From assembly GCA_043821615.1 (NCBI GenBank), contig JBDRCS010000047.1:1-52286 (forward strand): a stretch of 52,286 nt of DNA. Direction: 5' to 3'. Within the stretch, counting starts at the first letter, position 1, and each line of letters starts with the position of its first letter. This document shows, piece by piece, positions 32,899 through 41,248 of this stretch. The notes beneath the pieces were generated by a model, which worked only from the letters and a program-made list of their open reading frames with translations, made no database searches and was not told the origin of the DNA. The position numbers and the translations under genes were made by a program. This stretch comes from Patescibacteria group bacterium (GTDB lineage Bacteria; Patescibacteriota; Patescibacteriia; UBA9570; JAHJKD01).

Positions 32899-32974
32899 GC
32901 CGTTGTAGCTCAGTTGGTAGAGCATTCCCATGGTAAGGGAAAGGTCTGCGGTTCGAATCCGCACAACGGCTCCA
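32899..32974 (+). tRNA. tRNA-Thr (GGU), CCA encoded
   Basis: Acceptor GCCGUUG/CAACGGC, D arm AGCUCAGUUGGUAGAGC, anticodon arm UUCCC-AUGGUAA-GGGAA, T arm GCGGUUCGAAUCCGC, then UCCA. Confidence 0.92.
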
Positions 32975-33006
32975 TTAATAATTTTTTCTTAAATTATAAA
33001 AACATT

Positions 33007-34197
33007 ATGCATAAGAGAAGGATTATAACAATTTTTATCCTCTTTTTTATATTTGGCTCTCCGCTTCTCGCTTTTGCCCAGGAAGGCAGTGAAGGACAAG
33101 CACCGCTGGATGATTCTGGGCAGGATACTTTTTCTGCCGAGGTTACAAAAATACTGGATGAGCAAGTGATTGAAAGTGATGATGGCATTCCCCAGACTAA
33201 GCAAAAATTGTTGTTAAAAGGCCTGGACGGGGATTATGAAAATCAAAATGTTACCTATGATGGTACCAAGTATAATTTTCTTTCTGATGTTCCATATAAA
33301 GAAGGGGATAAACTGAGAATGCTTCACTCTACCACAGCTGAGGGAGAAGACATGTTTTTAATTGATGATTTCATCCGCACCAATCAGATTTATATACTGG
33401 TGCTAGCTTTTATAATAATTACTATAGCTATTGGTCGCTGGAAAGGCTTGAGCGCCCTCATTGGCCTAGCTATCTCTTTTCTCATTATTTTGAAAATGAT
33501 CCTACCTCTTATAGTAGAAGGATATAATCCTGTGCTTGTAACCATTGCCGGAGCAGTTATCATTATGGTCGGTACTTTATATATTGTCCACGGCTTCAAC
33601 CGTAAAACCACGTCCGCCGTTATTGGCACAGTCATCGGCCTGGTTTTCATCGGCTTTATTTCCTGGCTTTTCACCGAGCTTACCCGCCTCACCGGCACAG
33701 CCAGCGAAGAGACCTTATTCATCTCCGGTGTTCTGGGCAAGACCTTGAACATGAAGGGCATTTTGCTGGCCGGCATGATTATCGGCGCTCTTGGTGTTTT
33801 GGACGACATCACCATTGGCCAGGCCTCGGCCGTTCAGCAGATCCGGGAGGCTAACCCAAATATGTCTTTCAAAGAAGCCTACAAGCGGGCTATGAAAGTT
33901 GGCATTGATCATGTTGGCGCCATCGTCAACACCCTTTTCCTCGCCTATGCCGGCGCCGCCATGCCTTTGCTCCTGCTTTTCCAGGCCAACCAGCCGCCCT
34001 TCACCAGTTTTGAACACATCATCAACCACGGCGTTATTGCCCAAGAAATCGTCCGCGCTGTCTGCGGCTCCATCGGCCTTATCCTCATTGTCCCTATCAC
34101 CACCTTAGTAGCGGTTTATATGTTTAAGAGTAAAAAGGAGGGTGAAAAGCAGGAGAGTATAAAAAACATTGAACAACAATATCATGAAAAGCAATAA
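33007..34197 (+). CDS. YibE/F family membrane protein
   Basis: Start moved to the ATG at 33007, because the track start overlaps tRNA-Thr. It has a signal/TM segment, an extracytoplasmic N-domain, then a polytopic region with GVLDDITIGQASAV, which is typical of YibE/F. Confidence 0.75.
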   Translation: MHKRRIITIFILFFIFGSPLLAFAQEGSEGQAPLDDSGQDTFSAEVTKILDEQVIESDDGIPQTKQKLLLKGLDGDYENQNVTYDGTKYNFLSDVPYKEGDKLRMLHSTTAEGEDMFLIDDFIRTNQIYILVLAFIIITIAIGRWKGLSALIGLAISFLIILKMILPLIVEGYNPVLVTIAGAVIIMVGTLYIVHGFNRKTTSAVIGTVIGLVFIGFISWLFTELTRLTGTASEETLFISGVLGKTLNMKGILLAGMIIGALGVLDDITIGQASAVQQIREANPNMSFKEAYKRAMKVGIDHVGAIVNTLFLAYAGAAMPLLLLFQANQPPFTSFEHIINHGVIAQEIVRAVCGSIGLILIVPITTLVAVYMFKSKKEGEKQESIKNIEQQYHEKQ

Positions 34198-35026
34198 AAA
34201 AAACATAGAACAGAATAATAAAATAGTTCTCTTCCAAAGCCGAAAAATTCGACGAGCTTGGTATAAGGAAGAATGGTTTTATTCGGTTGTGGACGTGGTG
34301 GGTGTATTGACTAGCAGTGTTAATGCACGCGATTATTGGCATAAAATGAAGAAACGAGTCAGCGATGAGGAGAAAATCGAGTTGTCGACAATTTGTCGAC
34401 AACTGAAATTAAAATCAAGCGATGGTAAAATGTATAACACTGATTGTGCTAATACTGAAGGTATTTTTCGTATAATTCAATCAATTCCTTCTTCTAAAGT
34501 TGAACCTTTTAAACTTTGGCTGGCAAAAGTAGGCAAAGAACGGATTGATGAAATTGAAAACCCGGAACTTGCTCAAGAACGGATGAAAAAGCTTTTTGAA
34601 CAAAAAGGCTATCCGAAAGACTGGATTGACAAACGTCTGCGCGGTATGGCCATTCGTCAAAATTTAACAGATGAATGGAAAGAGCGAGGTGTTCAAAATG
34701 CAAAAGATTATGCAATTTTAACAGCGGAAATTTCCAAAGCAACTTTTGGAATGACGCCCAGTGAATATAAAAAGTTTAAAAATATACCAAAAAAATCCAA
34801 AGTAAATTTGCGTGACAATATGTCTGATTTGGAATTGATTTTTACTATGCTTGGCGAGAAAGTAACAACTGAAATTTCCAAGAAAGAAAAGCCAAAGAAC
34901 ATGCCCCAGAATAAAAAAGTCGCTAAACGCGGTGGCGGTGTAGCTGGAAAGGCGAGGAAAGATACTGAAAAAGAAATCGGGAGTAGCGTTGTTTCGGATA
35001 ATAATCTTTTAAGTGACGTTGATTAA
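34169..35026 (+). CDS. Bro-N domain / DNA-damage-inducible protein D (DinD)-like protein
   Basis: IRRAWYKEEWFYSVVDVVGVL...DGKMYNTDCANTEGIFRIIQSIPSSKVEPFKLWLAKVG...LTDEW...NLRDNMSDLEL matches the Bro-N/DinD pattern common in phages and islands. The start overlaps the upstream gene by 29 nt. Confidence 0.7.
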   Translation: MNNNIMKSNKKNIEQNNKIVLFQSRKIRRAWYKEEWFYSVVDVVGVLTSSVNARDYWHKMKKRVSDEEKIELSTICRQLKLKSSDGKMYNTDCANTEGIFRIIQSIPSSKVEPFKLWLAKVGKERIDEIENPELAQERMKKLFEQKGYPKDWIDKRLRGMAIRQNLTDEWKERGVQNAKDYAILTAEISKATFGMTPSEYKKFKNIPKKSKVNLRDNMSDLELIFTMLGEKVTTEISKKEKPKNMPQNKKVAKRGGGVAGKARKDTEKEIGSSVVSDNNLLSDVD

Positions 35027-35039
35027 GAAGTCACATCGC

Positions 35040-35131
35040 CATTGTCCCCATCACTACCTTGATTGCGGTTTATATGTTTAAGAGTAAAAAGGAAGTTAGT
35101 AAACAAAAAGCTGTAAAAAATAATGAACAAT
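35040..35131 (+). pseudogene. Displaced relic copy of the 3' end of the YibE/F gene
   Basis: About 92 nt similar to 34086-34186. In frame it reads IVPITTLIAVYMFKSKKEVSKQKAVKNNEQ-stop, against LIVPITTLVAVYMFKSKKEGEKQESIKNIEQ in the intact gene. Confidence 0.7.
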
Positions 35132-35160
35132 AAATTTGAAAGAATAAATTTATAATATTT

Positions 35161-36462
35161 ATGAAAGATTTGCATGTAGCTTTAAAAAATGAAATTATTG
35201 GAGAGGAAAAGGCCTCTGGTGTATCTGGAATTTTAGTTAAACATCAACAAAGTAAAACAGATATTTATTATTCTTTGCACATTGGTTTAAGTAGCATGAG
35301 TGTGTCAGGCGGTATTCAACAAACAGATTTTGCTGCACGGCTAGGTTTTCAGTTACAAAAGTGTGCATTTCAGCCTTCTAGGCGTTGTTACGCCATTGAG
35401 GTTCCAGAAAATTTTGACTACAAGGGTTTTATTCGGGCCTTTGAAGGGACCTATAGTAAGCTCAGATCAGCACAAGGAGATTTAAATAAATGTGGTATAC
35501 ATATTGATGGTGATGAGGGATTAGCATATTTTTTTGGTAAAAAAAGTACAAGAAGTCCATGGTCTGACAGTGAGCAGCGAGCATTTGGCGACGCTCACAG
35601 GGCTGGTCAGATAAAAAAATTGAAAGAAACTGAAGATGATGTTTTCAAATACGTATTAACATGGATGGAAAATGGAAATGAAAAAGGTTGGACTATTCAT
35701 TATCTTCCGAAACATCCACCTATGTCCTCCGAGGTCTGTGCAGTAATGAACTTTTTCAAACTCGGAACTTTTTCTGAGTGTCTACAAAATAATTTTAACC
35801 CATGTAGATGGAAGTTTATTAAATTTAATGACGACGAAGACAGTACAAGCATAGTGCATGGTTCGGCTGATAGAGCACATAGTTGGTTTAACAGTCATCA
35901 GGAACATTTTGGCAAAGGATTACAGTGTGTAGTTGAGGCAGAGGCCATAGTTTCAAAATTTGGATTACATATTTTAGAAATTCCGTCTGATTCATCAGAT
36001 TTAAACAATCCATCAACATCAGAAGAAGAGTCATCTATTAGTTTGATTCCAGATGAATTTGACATAGCTATTAGTTTTGCCGCCCCAGACAGAAAAAAAG
36101 CAAAAGAGTTAGCAACAATAGTTAAAGAAGCTGGATATAATGTATTTTATGACGATTTTTATACAGAACACTTATGGGGCAAAGATTTACCAGCTTTTTT
36201 TCATGAAATTTATTCAAAAAAATCTCGATACTGTGTTATGATGATATCTCCAGAATATGTCCAAAGAATGTGGACAAACCATGAAAGGCAATGTGCGCAA
36301 TCACGAGCGATAAAGGAACAAGGCAAGGAGTATATATTACCTATTCAAGTGGAGTTTACGGAAGTTCCAGGCCTTCCAGATACAGTGGGCTATTTATCAC
36401 TTGAGGAATATAATATTCAACAGGTTGCAGACATGCTCATTAGTAAACTAAAAAAGAACTAG
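35161..36462 (+). CDS. TIR domain protein with ~295-aa N-terminal domain of unknown function
   Basis: The C-terminal ~135 aa read FDIAISFAAPDRKKAKELATIVKEAGYNVFYDDF...RYCVMMISPEYVQRMWTNHERQCA. This is a bacterial TIR pattern that includes the conserved W...E glutamate. Confidence 0.75.
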   Translation: MKDLHVALKNEIIGEEKASGVSGILVKHQQSKTDIYYSLHIGLSSMSVSGGIQQTDFAARLGFQLQKCAFQPSRRCYAIEVPENFDYKGFIRAFEGTYSKLRSAQGDLNKCGIHIDGDEGLAYFFGKKSTRSPWSDSEQRAFGDAHRAGQIKKLKETEDDVFKYVLTWMENGNEKGWTIHYLPKHPPMSSEVCAVMNFFKLGTFSECLQNNFNPCRWKFIKFNDDEDSTSIVHGSADRAHSWFNSHQEHFGKGLQCVVEAEAIVSKFGLHILEIPSDSSDLNNPSTSEEESSISLIPDEFDIAISFAAPDRKKAKELATIVKEAGYNVFYDDFYTEHLWGKDLPAFFHEIYSKKSRYCVMMISPEYVQRMWTNHERQCAQSRAIKEQGKEYILPIQVEFTEVPGLPDTVGYLSLEEYNIQQVADMLISKLKKN

Positions 36463-36467
36463 CAAAC

Positions 36468-37022
36468 ATGGATTTTATAAAAAAAATAAATAAGAGGGGA
36501 TTTCAAGCAATTTTAGCAAACTCAATTTTAATTGGAATCTTTTCGGTTTTTTTAAAAATTGAATTAATAAATGATGTTGTCTATGCAACCCTTGTAATAA
36601 TTTCAATTTTTGTAGGATGTATTATTTATTTTAGAGAAAAAATTAGCAAACTTACCCTTAATCCAAAAGAGGGTTCTTTAGAGTTAGAACTTGAAGAGTT
36701 TAAGGAGGATATTGTTAATAATTTAATAATAAAGCAAAATCTATTAGAAATTGCTTCTGGAAGATACGATGGACCACCTAAAAAGTTAAAAGAAATTTTG
36801 AATTTATTAGGAGAAGAGGCATATAAAAAAGGTGAGAAATATTCTTCCGCTATGCCTTACACTGAAAAAATTGTAGAAGCATATAATGAAATAGATTCGA
36901 TTGGCTCCTTAAAACCAGCTGCTTCAGATTATGATGAAAAACAGAAAGAAATGGAACAATCTCACGAGAAATTAGAGACAGCATTTGATGATTTTTTAAA
37001 TTATCTTAAGAATAAGGAATAA
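36468..37022 (+). CDS. Small membrane protein (two N-terminal TM helices plus acidic helical tail)
   Basis: 184 aa, starting 5 nt after the TIR gene stop. Hydrophobic segments are ILANSILIGIFSVFLKI and VVYATLVIISIFVGCIIYF. Confidence 0.55.
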   Translation: MDFIKKINKRGFQAILANSILIGIFSVFLKIELINDVVYATLVIISIFVGCIIYFREKISKLTLNPKEGSLELELEEFKEDIVNNLIIKQNLLEIASGRYDGPPKKLKEILNLLGEEAYKKGEKYSSAMPYTEKIVEAYNEIDSIGSLKPAASDYDEKQKEMEQSHEKLETAFDDFLNYLKNKE

Positions 37023-37092: not shown

Positions 37093-37176
37093 GGGCAGGT
37101 ACCAGAGTGGTCAAATGGAACTGGCTGTAAACCAGTTGGCCTCGTGCCTTCGGGGGTTCGAATCCCTCTCCACCCA
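37093..37176 (+). tRNA. tRNA-Tyr (GUA), class II, with two acceptor-stem mismatches
   Basis: Anticodon arm ACUGG-CUGUAAA-CCAGU, long variable arm, T arm GGGGG-UUCGAAU-CCCUC, discriminator A. It aligns position-for-position with bacterial tRNA-Tyr. However, acceptor GGGCAGG versus UCCACCC leaves C4.A69 and A5.C68 unpaired. Confidence 0.75.
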
Positions 37177-37210
37177 CAGTAAAAAAAATTAAAAATGGAG
37201 GAAAAATAAA

Positions 37211-40372: not shown

Positions 40373-41248
40373 TTAACACTCTTGCAGGTTATTTGGATCG
40401 AGCTGATCCAGGTGGGGAAAGATGCAGGTGGCGTAGTGTTGCATTCCTTCCAGAAACAGCGGTGCCTTGGCCAGGCGGTAGTTCCGGTCGCGCAGCTGCT
40501 GGGGCTGGTCGCCCGGAAAGACCGGCGTTCCTTCAGCCACGGCAATCGGGGGGCCGTCATCAATCACGCAGTTCACGAAGTGCAGGGTGGCTCCGGTCAC
40601 TGTGGTTCCGTTGATGCGAGCTTTCCGAATGGCGTCAGCCGTGGGCGTGGGTCCGCGCATGCAGAACTTATGATCAGCCAGGGTAATGGCCGGGTGGATG
40701 TTGACCACTCGTCCCATCAGGCCCATCTCTGAACAAATCAGATGCTCAATCCGGGCCATGTAATGGTCCGAAACCAGCACATCTGCCTCGGCCTGGTGAA
40801 ACAGCCCCAGAATTCGACGCTCGAATTCCAGCTTGCCCAGGCGCCGCCCCTCTTTGTCGCTGAGGGGCAACTTGCGGAACAGTGAAGGCACATTCACGGT
40901 CCGGCTGGCCAGGGTCTGGCCATTGGGCAGGCACAGATCCAAGGGGTGGATCCACGGCTTACCTTCGGTGGGCTGGCACGGGTAGCCATTCAGGTTGTCT
41001 GTCTCATGGTCATCAGTGATCACGCGGACCACTTCACAAACACCATACAATGAACCGCCCGGAAAGGTTGCCCGGACCATGGCTTCAATTACGCCTTTCA
41101 TGTACCGCTCACCGTCCGGGTAGGCAATGGTCCGGCCATTTTGGTCGCAGGCGCCAGTATCGCGCACCGAAGTCAGGAATGCGACCCGAATGGGCCGGCT
41201 GGGGTTAATAGATTTCAGGCTGGGGTTGCCAAAACGCGTAACTTTCAT
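40373..41248 (-). CDS. Formyltransferase (PurN-fold)-like protein in a G+C-rich island
   Basis: IRVAFLTSVRDTG, DVLVSDHYMARI, VNIHPA and GATLHFVNCVIDDGPPI resemble the GART/formyl_trans_N layout. Codons are strongly G/C-ending, unlike all the neighbouring genes. Confidence 0.55.
   Translation of the reverse strand: MKVTRFGNPSLKSINPSRPIRVAFLTSVRDTGACDQNGRTIAYPDGERYMKGVIEAMVRATFPGGSLYGVCEVVRVITDDHETDNLNGYPCQPTEGKPWIHPLDLCLPNGQTLASRTVNVPSLFRKLPLSDKEGRRLGKLEFERRILGLFHQAEADVLVSDHYMARIEHLICSEMGLMGRVVNIHPAITLADHKFCMRGPTPTADAIRKARINGTTVTGATLHFVNCVIDDGPPIAVAEGTPVFPGDQPQQLRDRNYRLAKAPLFLEGMQHYATCIFPHLDQLDPNNLQEC

What the first reader, a model, noticed from the sequence alone, without database searches (positions are those of the whole stretch)
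35161..37022. Two-gene TIR module (unknown N-domain plus TIR, then a small 2-TM protein) in an island next to tRNA-Tyr: candidate defence system
Seen: the 433-aa protein at 35161-36462 ends in a clear bacterial TIR domain. It reads FDIAISFAAPD...NVFYDDF...CVMMISPEYVQRMWTNHERQCA and includes the conserved glutamate after W. The first ~295 aa match nothing I recognise. Five nt after its stop begins a 184-aa protein with two N-terminal TM helices and an acidic helical tail. The pair lies between a Bro-N/DinD-like gene with duplicated flanks and tRNA-Tyr. Established: prokaryotic TIR domains act as NADases or signal generators in Thoeris, TIR-SAVED CBASS effectors, SPARTA and other antiphage systems. 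Small TM proteins are frequent abortive-infection effectors. Inference: the N-domain senses, the TIR signals or depletes NAD, and the membrane partner acts as effector. No SIR2, Macro, SLOG, Argonaute, cyclase or STING partner is present, so the pair does not fit a named system.
Basis: partly seen in the sequence, partly recalled or inferred. Interest (0 to 1): 0.7.

Follow-up and report, generated by a model that had tools for sequence, protein, structure and literature searches.

The report
Stand-alone TIR defence protein, not a pair
The TIR gene belongs to a widespread, unnamed family of single-gene candidate anti-phage NAD-cleaving proteins with an unrecognised N-terminal domain, while the small membrane gene behind it is a nearly unique neighbour and not a conserved partner.

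Summary
Both ORFs, the TIR domain with its catalytic Glu, the 5-nt gap, the two TM helices, the duplicated flanks of the Bro-N gene and tRNA-Tyr are all present.

I examined 115 other full-length loci of the TIR family (116 with the window, 83 lineages at 90% identity, at least 10 phyla). None has a relative of the 2-TM protein. Co-oriented downstream neighbours fall into 43 unrelated families. TIR proteins that are 97% identical have different downstream genes. The 2-TM protein has only two other relatives among 1.84 billion representatives, and the one with visible context lacks the TIR gene.

The 433-aa protein has a fixed architecture. Two tandem ~130-aa modules each carry an invariant His-His-Cys-Cys tetrad. 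This region has no Pfam, PDB-sequence or Foldseek match. It is fused to an AbTir-like TIR_2 domain with invariant WxxxE.

Homologues sit in defence or mobile contexts, including type I/III R-M operons (even between hsdM and hsdS), Gabija, PARIS and CapP. The most likely reading is a single-protein sensor-TIR abortive-infection NADase. This is a new variant of a known kind and of moderate interest.

The parts
35161..36462 (+). Gene for the 433-aa stand-alone TIR protein (tandem HHCC N-domain plus TIR_2). This is the functional unit.
   Evidence: ORF. More than 330 full-length homologues at 38-48% identity and 99-100% coverage. The N-domain profile retrieves only N+TIR proteins.
35161..35535 (+). 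N-domain repeat 1 (aa 1-125), beta3-alpha-beta2-long alpha, with conserved H5, H40, C68, C76.
   Evidence: AF2 model with pLDDT 89.8 and pTM 0.85. hhalign of repeat 1 against repeat 2 gives probability 92.9% and E 3.7e-7. The residues are conserved in 36-37 of 37 sequences.
35572..35970 (+). N-domain repeat 2 (aa 138-270), same topology, with invariant H146, H180, C207, C215 and the KGWxxHYxPKHPP motif.
36052..36459 (+). TIR_2 domain (aa 298-433). W371 is at 36271-36273 and the catalytic E375 at 36283-36285.
   Evidence: Pfam TIR_2 E 2.5e-14. The profile aligns to AbTir and BtTir at E 1e-10 to 1e-11, with the Glu in register. W371 and E375 are invariant in 37 of 37 sequences. Translation checked.
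36468..37022 (+). 184-aa 2-TM protein. It is probably co-transcribed but is not a conserved partner. TM1 is at about 36501-36560 and TM2 at about 36576-36635. The tail is acidic and helical, with a conserved SGRWDGPPKKLKEIL motif.
   Evidence: ORF. Hydropathy and pI. Only 3 hits among 1.84 billion representatives. No family match. Absent from all other loci. Lowest GC (27.2%) and GC3 (18.4%) of 41 ORFs in the window. No terminator-like site between the two genes.
34169..35026 (+). Bro-N / DinD-like gene (PADLOC candidate PDC-S13). It is a separate single-gene insertion and not part of the TIR unit.
   Evidence: Pfam Bro-N E 3.6e-11. PADLOC PDC-S13 E 4.8e-117. NCBIfam DinD E 1.3e-4.
34081..34179 (+). 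Direct repeat copy 1, which is the 3' end of the YibE/F gene.
   Evidence: 99 nt.
35035..35133 (+). Direct repeat copy 2 (78% identical), a relic YibE/F 3' end left behind the Bro-N insertion. It ends 27 nt before the TIR start codon.
37093..37177 (+). tRNA-Tyr (GTA). It marks the downstream border of the island. There is no evidence that it served as an integration site.
   Evidence: ARAGORN. No tRNA-derived flanking repeat other than the generic T-loop match. No integrase in the island.

Best explanation
The 433-aa protein is a self-contained sensor-effector of a widespread, so far unnamed family of stand-alone bacterial TIR proteins.

The N-terminal ~270 aa are two tandem copies of a ~130-aa beta3-alpha-beta2-alpha module. 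Each copy carries an invariant His-His-Cys-Cys tetrad. I infer two structural or regulatory metal sites, probably Zn. A variable linker joins this domain to an AbTir-like TIR_2 domain with an intact WxxxE catalytic Glu.

The proposed mechanism is inferred, not shown. The N-domain holds the TIR inactive until it detects an infection cue. The TIR domains then self-associate, as all characterised TIR NADases must, and cleave NAD+. This depletes the cell of NAD+, possibly with cADPR-isomer by-products, and aborts infection.

The gene needs no dedicated partner. The 2-TM gene 5 nt downstream is a nearly ORFan, very AT-rich neighbour that happens to be co-transcribed in this Patescibacteria genome. 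The Bro-N gene upstream is an independent insertion.
For: Shown here:

(1) The architecture is fixed and conserved over its full length. More than 330 homologues have 99-100% coverage. The N-domain profile finds only N+TIR proteins, and the exceptions are truncated or frameshifted. Of 81 loci fished with an N-domain-only pattern, 69 are full N+TIR, 8 are partial matches (short or broken ORFs, several at contig ends) and 4 gave no ORF-level match.

(2) There is no conserved neighbour. The 116 loci form 83 lineages. Only 57 loci have a co-oriented downstream gene within 150 nt, and these fall into 43 families. The 62 upstream neighbours fall into 40 families. TIR proteins that are 97.5% identical (L009 and L094) have different downstream genes.

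(3) No 2-TM homologue occurs in any locus. The 2-TM family has 3 lineages among 1.84 billion representatives.

(4) The TIR is catalytically intact. W371 and E375 are invariant and align to the AbTir and BtTir NADases.

(5) The context is defence or mobile DNA. The gene is the last gene of type I R-M operons (L001, L003, L014) and lies between hsdM and hsdS in L098. It follows type III R-M in L007 and L033. It sits next to Gabija-like OLD+UvrD (L003), AriA/AAA_15 and CapP (L005), RT+PDDEXK (L009), DUF4062-TIR (L011), SMODS (L033), integrases and IS elements. One copy is on an IMG/VR contig beside a serine recombinase.

(6) The internal duplication with the HHCC tetrads in register is statistically supported. 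The AF2 model is confident.

(7) The distribution is patchy across at least 10 phyla. The window protein's nearest relatives are only 46-48% identical. The TIR gene's GC3 is 26%, against 50% in the flanking housekeeping genes. Both fit horizontal transfer.
Against: There is no experimental evidence for any family member. The defence-island association is descriptive. I had no matched background control, and some neighbours are housekeeping genes, such as thiamine pyrophosphokinase in L042.

The window copy itself has no R-M or other classical defence genes nearby apart from the PDC-S13 candidate. The 5-nt spacing and the absence of a terminator mean the 2-TM gene is probably co-expressed, so a local functional link cannot be excluded.

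NAD+ depletion and signal production cannot be told apart from sequence. Metal binding by the HHCC tetrads is inferred from conservation and spacing only, because I could not inspect model coordinates. The N-domain is fairly well conserved (41-47% mean pairwise identity, against 61% for the TIR). That is unusual for a sensor of fast-evolving phage proteins and suggests a conserved ligand instead.
Confidence: 0.55

Rival explanations
1. A local two-gene, Thoeris-like system. In this genome the TIR protein produces a cADPR-type signal on infection, and the downstream 2-TM protein is a membrane-disrupting effector. This would be analogous to Thoeris type VII (TIR + SLATT ThsH).
For: The gap is 5 nt with no terminator, so co-transcription is likely. 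The partner has two N-terminal TM helices plus a helical cytoplasmic tail with a conserved basic SGRWDGPPKKLKEIL motif. There is a faint SLATT_6 match over the TM region (E 0.34). TIR+SLATT operons are experimentally validated defence systems, and TIR clusters are known to swap effectors (bioRxiv 10.64898/2025.12.03.692087). In L089 the only other contextualised homologue of the 2-TM gene lies in a tight block with a Nuc_deoxyrib_tr-like gene, another N-glycosidase-type fold.
Against: None of the 115 other TIR-family loci has a homologue of the 2-TM protein or any recurrent membrane partner. About half of the loci have no co-oriented downstream gene at all. The SLATT hit is far below threshold and absent in the two homologues. 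PADLOC finds nothing. L089 has no TIR gene, and its 2-TM copy carries an in-frame TAA. The tail is acidic (pI 4.8), unlike the positively charged ligand pockets described for ThsH. The AF2 model is unusable at pLDDT 48.5.
Confidence: 0.15
2. A restriction guard, which is a specialisation of the best explanation. The family monitors R-M enzymes, as PrrC does for EcoprrI. Phage anti-restriction proteins, or disturbance of the R-M complex, are sensed by the HHCC domain and release TIR NADase activity.
For: An R-M-like gene lies within 5 kb in 16 of 83 lineages, and only 52 lineages have at least 3 kb of upstream sequence. A co-oriented R-M gene lies directly upstream in 9 lineages. Gaps are 0-36 nt, or the genes overlap, in L001, L003, L014 and L033. 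In L098 the gene is embedded between hsdM and hsdS with 4- and 11-nt overlaps. From memory, prrC sits likewise inside the type I prr locus.
Against: Most lineages, including the window, show no adjacent R-M genes. Defence genes of many kinds are commonly embedded in type I R-M loci without any functional coupling. The R-M types vary (I, III, IIG-like), which argues against a specific protein-protein interaction.
Confidence: 0.12
3. Not an immune gene. The protein could be a TIR NADase acting as a toxin or addiction module of mobile DNA, an inter-bacterial or host-directed effector like the Tcp proteins (AbTir, BtpA/TcpB), or an NAD-metabolic regulator.
For: The closest solved TIR domains are the Tcp-type AbTir, BtTir, PdTIR and TcpB. 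The N-domain is rather conserved for a phage sensor. Some neighbourhoods are mobile elements or housekeeping genes rather than defence genes.
Against: There is no signal peptide, secretion-associated gene or antitoxin-like partner conserved next to it. The hosts are mostly free-living environmental bacteria and CPR. The gene recurs inside R-M and defence operons.
Confidence: 0.13

Closest known systems
AbTir / BtTir / TcpB-type bacterial TIR_2 NADases (PDB 7uwg, 8g83, 7uxr, 4lqc)
   Same: These are the best sequence matches to the TIR domain (E 1e-10 to 1e-11). The SFAG, FYD and WxxxE motifs are in register and the catalytic Glu is conserved.
   Different: Those proteins pair the TIR with a coiled-coil or short N-terminal region. 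Here the TIR follows a 270-aa duplicated HHCC domain with no known relative.
Thoeris, especially type VII (ThsB TIR + SLATT 2-TM effector ThsH; bioRxiv 10.64898/2025.12.03.692087)
   Same: A TIR gene is immediately followed by a small gene for a protein with N-terminal TM helices.
   Different: There is no conserved effector in the family. The 2-TM protein fails the SLATT models. There is no ThsB_TIR (PF08937) match. That survey explicitly set aside stand-alone TIR proteins.
Single-polypeptide NADase abortive-infection proteins (DSR1/DSR2 SIR2-sensor proteins; TIR-Avs/TIR-NLR)
   Same: These share the logic inferred here. One protein carries a sensor domain fused to an NAD+-degrading effector and is encoded as a single gene in defence islands.
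   Different: They use a different effector (SIR2) or a different sensor (STAND NTPase or alpha-solenoid). The protein here has no NTPase and its sensor fold is unrecognised.
PADLOC candidate PDC-S66 and RT-TIR (DRT/retron-type, NF042941)
   Same: The TIR portions are similar (E 1.7e-15 and 8.4e-10).
   Different: The matches cover only the TIR region (profile positions 137-241 of 282 and 331-437 of 464). The N-terminal domains are unrelated.
PrrC / RloC-type abortive-infection genes embedded in type I R-M loci
   Same: A subset of homologues occupies the same kind of position, as the last gene of hsdMSR operons or between hsdM and hsdS.
   Different: The effector is unrelated (an anticodon nuclease versus TIR). 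Coupling is unproven, and the window copy has no R-M neighbour.

Membership tests
Pfam TIR_2 (PF13676) / catalytically active TIR NADase | Score above the Pfam gathering threshold | tested here: met
   54.2 bits against a cut-off of 28, E 2.5e-14, aa 302-420.
Pfam TIR_2 (PF13676) / catalytically active TIR NADase | Catalytic Glu of the WxxxE motif present and aligned with a characterised NADase | tested here: met
   E375 aligns with the Glu of the WTNYE motif of AbTir and BtTir. W371 and E375 are invariant in 37 of 37 sequences. That this Glu is AbTir's catalytic residue is from memory.
Pfam TIR_2 (PF13676) / catalytically active TIR NADase | NAD+ cleavage activity | not testable with these tools
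   Needs an enzyme assay.
Thoeris (any type) | TIR gene in a conserved operon with a dedicated effector gene | tested here: not met
   43 unrelated downstream and 40 unrelated upstream neighbour families over 83 lineages. About half of the loci lack a co-oriented downstream gene.
Thoeris (any type) | Phage-dependent production of a signalling nucleotide that activates the effector | not testable with these tools
   Needs LC-MS of infected lysates.
Thoeris type VII | Effector carries a SLATT domain | tested here: not met
   The best hit is NCBIfam SLATT_6 at E 0.34 and 10.6 bits against a cut-off of 100, over aa 14-58 only. There is no SLATT hit for P0123 or the L089 homologue, and no Pfam or PADLOC hit.
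CBASS / Pycsar / SPARTA TIR effectors | Adjacent cyclase (CD-NTase or PycC) or short Argonaute, and a SAVED, STING or APAZ fusion | tested here: not met
   No such domain is in the protein. None was seen in the ORFs listed for 30-42 kb of the window; the Pfam-scanned ones are housekeeping or unknown, and the others were identified from their translations.
PADLOC PDC-S66 | Full-length match to the single-gene model | tested here: not met
   Only profile positions 137-241 of 282, the TIR part, match aa 288-396.
New family proposed here: tandem-HHCC-TIR | About 430-460 aa, two HHCC modules (H5/H40/C68/C76 and H146/H180/C207/C215), GDGH and KGWxxHYxPKHPP motifs, and a C-terminal TIR_2 | tested here: met
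   The window protein keeps all eight residues and the motifs, with GDAH in place of GDGH. The duplication is supported by hhalign at E 3.7e-7.
New family proposed here: tandem-HHCC-TIR | Metal (Zn) binding by the HHCC tetrads | not testable with these tools
This needs AF3 with ions, ICP-MS or a crystal structure.

The most novel reading that the evidence does not exclude
The tandem-HHCC domain is a previously unseen fold that serves as an infection sensor, and the family is a new, phylum-spanning single-gene TIR immune system. In a fifth or more of lineages it is wired into type I/III restriction operons, even between hsdM and hsdS. There it may act as a PrrC-like sentinel that converts phage anti-restriction into NAD+ collapse.

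A second, less likely novel reading also remains open. The rare 2-TM protein may be a new membrane effector that pairs with different N-glycosidase-fold enzymes, the TIR here and a Nuc_deoxyrib_tr-like protein in L089.
Probability: 0.2. Interest if true: 0.65.

Novelty: new variant of a known kind. Interest (0 to 1): 0.4.

Why it matters
Stand-alone TIR proteins were deliberately set aside in the latest systematic survey of bacterial TIR immunity, so their sensors are largely unexplored.

This family offers a compact, 430-aa, single-gene sensor-TIR. Its sensor domain is confidently modelled and internally duplicated, has no relative among the solved or viral-protein structures searched, and probably binds metal. 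The family is spread over at least ten phyla, including CPR/Patescibacteria, whose tiny genomes carry few known defences.

Its recurrent insertion into restriction-modification operons gives a concrete, testable hypothesis about layered immunity. For the scan itself, the useful result is negative. The attractive 'TIR + small membrane protein' pair is a coincidence of neighbourhood, not a system.

Tried and rejected
(1) The 2-TM protein as a conserved partner. I ran a word-indexed search, an exhaustive phmmer against 1.84 billion representatives, and phmmer --max and tblastn against all 170 fetched loci. I found only a self-partial copy and two fragments.

(2) The 2-TM protein as SLATT. Pfam, NCBIfam and PADLOC scans of all three homologues gave one sub-threshold hit. 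The AF2 model had pLDDT 48.5, so I did not run a fold search on it.

(3) Identifying the N-domain. I tried Pfam, NCBIfam and PADLOC, Foldseek against PDB and BFVD (best E 0.016-0.06, TM about 0.18; weak PUR-alpha/Whirly and ARO/CYC resemblances were rejected as noise), and a PDB profile search at E<=10. I also ran tblastn against the plasmid and phage collections (no match).

(4) The N-domain fused to other effectors. I found none. The apparent exceptions are truncations or frameshifts.

(5) tRNA-Tyr as an integration site. I found no integrase and no tRNA-derived repeat.

(6) Looking up P0123's contig. It is not on record.

(7) PDC-S66 membership. Only the TIR part matches.

(8) Promoter and terminator scans. 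The counts are at chance level and are used only to note that there is no terminator between the two genes.
Full report
**Observation**

The window comes from a Patescibacteria MAG, according to the source name of the identical protein P0001. The coordinates hold. A 433-aa ORF lies at 35161-36462 and a 184-aa ORF at 36468-37022 on the + strand, 5 nt apart. tRNA-Tyr(GTA) follows at 37093-37177.

Pfam TIR_2 matches aa 302-420 at E 2.5e-14, with 54 bits against a cut-off of 28. The quoted WTNHERQCA is at 36271-36297. The 184-aa protein has hydrophobic segments at about aa 12-31 and 37-56, and an acidic tail of pI 4.8 that is predicted helical.

The upstream gene (34169-35026) has a Bro-N domain with a DinD-like C-terminus, and it matches the PADLOC single-gene candidate PDC-S13 at E 4.8e-117. 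It is bracketed by a 99-nt direct repeat of 78% identity, at 34081-34179 and 35035-35133. That repeat is a duplicated 3' end of the YibE/F gene.

**The TIR protein belongs to a large family with a fixed architecture**

A search of 5.8 billion proteins returned more than 330 relatives. The 120 listed are about 390-480 aa, mostly 430-460. They are 38-48% identical to the query and nearly all cover 99-100% of it. In a 37-sequence alignment the N-terminal region is conserved as well as the TIR.

A profile made from the N-terminal 285 aa alone retrieved 181 proteins. All 120 listed are again N+TIR fusions. The few without a precomputed TIR annotation are truncated or frameshifted copies.

I also fished metagenomic and viral contigs with an N-domain-only peptide pattern. 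Of the 81 loci, 69 are full N+TIR, 8 are partial matches (short or broken ORFs, several at contig ends) and 4 gave no ORF-level match. So the N-domain is not a mobile module. It occurs only with this TIR.

The TIR module itself also occurs with other N- or C-terminal extensions, in 39 of the 88 loci then in hand.

**The TIR domain**

A profile search of PDB sequences puts the TIR closest to BtTir (7uxr, E 9e-12) and AbTir (7uwg and 8g83, E 1e-10), followed by PdTIR and TcpB. Glu375 is in register with the Glu of their WTNYE motif. From memory, not checked here, that Glu is AbTir's catalytic residue. W371 and E375 are invariant in all 37 sequences.

**The N-terminal domain**

An AlphaFold2 model of aa 1-295, built on a 58-sequence alignment, is confident (pLDDT 89.8, pTM 0.85). 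It shows two successive beta3-alpha-beta2-long-alpha modules.

A profile-profile alignment of the two halves (aa 1-125 against 138-270) gives 92.9% probability and E 3.7e-7. It superposes H5/H146, H40/H180, C68/C207 and C76/C215. All eight residues are conserved in 36-37 of 37 sequences. Their spacing is nearly identical in the two halves, at 35/34, 28/27 and 8/8 residues. I infer a tandem duplication with one His2Cys2 metal site per module.

The domain has no Pfam, NCBIfam or PADLOC match. It has no PDB sequence match even at E<=10. It has no Foldseek match in PDB or BFVD, where the best E-values are 0.06 and 0.016 with TM about 0.18. It has no tblastn match in the plasmid or phage collections.

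**Test of the two-gene hypothesis**

I assembled 116 full-length loci: 46 from one-genome-per-species contigs and exact-protein look-ups, 69 from metagenomes and IMG/VR, and the window itself. They represent 83 lineages at 90% identity. The hosts span Patescibacteria, Pseudomonadota, Acidobacteriota, Chloroflexota, Actinomycetota, Planctomycetota, Elusimicrobiota, Armatimonadota, Bdellovibrionota and others.

- No locus other than the window contains any relative of the 184-aa protein. I checked with phmmer --max and with tblastn without low-complexity filtering.
- Only 57 loci have a co-oriented downstream gene within 150 nt. These fall into 43 unrelated families over 42 lineages.
- The 62 upstream neighbours fall into 40 families.
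- TIR proteins that are 97.5% identical (L009 and L094) are followed by different genes. One is a 102-aa acidic protein. The other is a 263-aa protein with an RNDAGH, Rx4H-type motif.

From the other side, an exhaustive phmmer of the 184-aa protein against 1.84 billion cluster representatives found three hits. One is a partial copy of itself from another assembly, and two are fragments at 49-57% identity. The one fragment with recoverable context is L089. There it is preceded by an unrelated 256-aa gene and carries an in-frame TAA where the relatives have Glu. It heads a tight block with a 201-aa unknown gene, a 154-aa Nuc_deoxyrib_tr-like gene (E 1.8e-5) and a further ORF. No TIR gene is present.

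The 184-aa protein has no significant family match. A SLATT_6 hit at E 0.34 (10.6 bits against a cut-off of 100) covers only the TM region, and the two homologues do not reproduce it. Its AF2 model is unusable at pLDDT 48.5.

The 2-TM gene has the lowest GC (27.2%) and GC3 (18.4%) of the 41 long ORFs in the window. The TIR gene has GC3 of 26%, and the flanking housekeeping genes about 50%. Both genes look foreign. The 2-TM gene is the more extreme of the two.

**What the contexts say**

The family is a single-gene unit that lands in variable, defence-rich or mobile DNA.

- It is the last gene of type I R-M operons: hsdM-S-R-TIR in L001 and L003, and hsdR-M-S-TIR in L014, with gaps of 0-36 nt or overlaps.
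- It lies between hsdM-like and hsdS-like genes in L098, with 4- and 11-nt overlaps.
- It follows type III res/mod genes in L007, L033 and L097.
- It lies beside Gabija-like OLD+UvrD genes and a phospholipase C in L003.
- It lies between an HTH/CapP-like pair and AriA-like AAA_15/21 genes in L005.
- It follows a ResIII/TnsA-like, RT and PDDEXK block in CPR genomes (L009).
- It precedes a DUF4062-TIR_2 gene in L011, and DUF6602 plus SMODS genes in L033.
- It lies beside RES-like, toxin-antitoxin, integrase, IS481 and serine-recombinase genes, the last on an IMG/VR contig.

I used the R-M proteins found this way as BLAST seeds. R-M-like genes lie within 5 kb in 16 of 83 lineages, and only 52 lineages have at least 3 kb of upstream sequence. 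They lie directly upstream and co-oriented in 9 lineages. This is a lower bound, and I had no matched background control. Some neighbours are plainly housekeeping genes, such as thiamine pyrophosphokinase in L042. The window itself has no R-M seed match.

**Mechanism**

The following points are shown: an intact AbTir-like TIR, a conserved duplicated Cys/His-rich N-domain, a fixed fusion, no conserved partner, and a defence or mobile context.

The mechanism itself is inferred. The N-domain senses an infection cue and licenses TIR self-association. By established knowledge, characterised TIR NADases (SARM1, AbTir filaments, TIR-SAVED, TIR-STING, SPARTA) need self-association to form the composite active site. 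NAD+ is then cleaved and infection aborts.

The N-domain is only moderately more divergent than the TIR, at 41-47% against 61% mean pairwise identity. The cue may therefore be a conserved molecule, such as a nucleic-acid feature, a small molecule or a host complex like R-M, rather than a fast-evolving phage protein. I put this explanation at 0.55.

The rivals are:
- A locally assembled Thoeris-type-VII-like pair (0.15).
- A PrrC-like R-M guard, which is a specialisation of the main model (0.12).
- A non-immune toxin or effector role (0.13).

**Comparison with what is known**

A December 2025 preprint (10.64898/2025.12.03.692087) expanded Thoeris to eleven types. These include TIR + SLATT (type VII, canonical cADPR) and TIR + CMP-hydrolase (type VIII). 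So 'TIR plus a small 2-TM protein' is now a named configuration. The pair here fails its defining features, because there is no SLATT domain and no conserved operon. The same study explicitly discarded stand-alone TIR proteins, which is the class this family belongs to.

PADLOC PDC-S66 and the RT-TIR models match the TIR part only. I found no paper describing this architecture. The searches returned nothing specific, but the library is incomplete.

**Verdict**

The real finding is a new architectural variant of the known sensor-TIR theme, not a new two-gene system. Interest is moderate at 0.4. Many uncharacterised defence candidates exist. Still, the unrecognised, duplicated, probably metal-binding sensor domain, the breadth of the family including CPR bacteria, and its repeated embedding in restriction operons make it a reasonable experimental target.

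Noticed in passing
window 34081-35133: The Bro-N/DinD-like gene (PADLOC PDC-S13, E 4.8e-117) is a 954-bp single-gene insertion into the 3' end of the YibE/F gene. It is flanked by 99-nt direct repeats of 78% identity. The downstream copy still encodes a YibE/F-like C-terminus, so the insert seems to have supplied a replacement 3' end. No recombinase is present.
   Followed up: partly
window 40373-41248 (-): A 291-aa Formyl_trans_N ORF has GC of 58.6% and GC3 of 69% in a window that averages 38% GC. This suggests recent horizontal transfer or a chimeric assembly.
   Followed up: partly
L089 1255-3290: This is the only other contextualised relative of the 2-TM gene. It carries an in-frame TAA (GAA to TAA, codon 82). 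It heads a tightly packed block of 2-TM, a 201-aa unknown gene, a 154-aa Nuc_deoxyrib_tr-like gene and a 136-aa partial ORF. This could be a different nucleotide-centred system.
   Followed up: partly
L098 1971-5942: A TIR-family gene sits between hsdM-like and hsdS-like genes with 4- and 11-nt overlaps. From memory, prrC sits likewise inside the type I prr locus. R-M-like genes lie directly upstream and co-oriented in 9 of 83 lineages.
   Followed up: partly
L009, L010, L093-L096, L049, L091, L092, L094: The CPR clade carries a block of ResIII/TnsA-like helicase-nuclease, reverse transcriptase and PDDEXK nuclease followed by the TIR gene. The gene after the TIR alternates between a 102-aa acidic protein and a 263-aa protein with an RNDAGH (Rx4H, HEPN-like) motif. 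The TIR proteins themselves are 85-100% identical.
   Followed up: partly
L011 9312-10376 (also L106, L107): The TIR-family gene is followed 18 nt later by a DUF4062 + TIR_2 protein. DUF4062 was recently described as a TIR-like NADase of the Swarozyc defence system (abstract of bioRxiv 10.64898/2026.05.01.722283, listed).
   Followed up: no
window 32899-33004: The mechanically listed YibE/F ORF (TTG at 32914) overlaps tRNA-Thr(GGT) at 32899-32974. The real start is probably the ATG near 33004 (MHKRR...).
   Followed up: no
L090 4701-6714: One full-length family member lies on an IMG/VR viral contig (33.9 kb) next to a serine recombinase. The other neighbours there have no Pfam match.
   Followed up: partly
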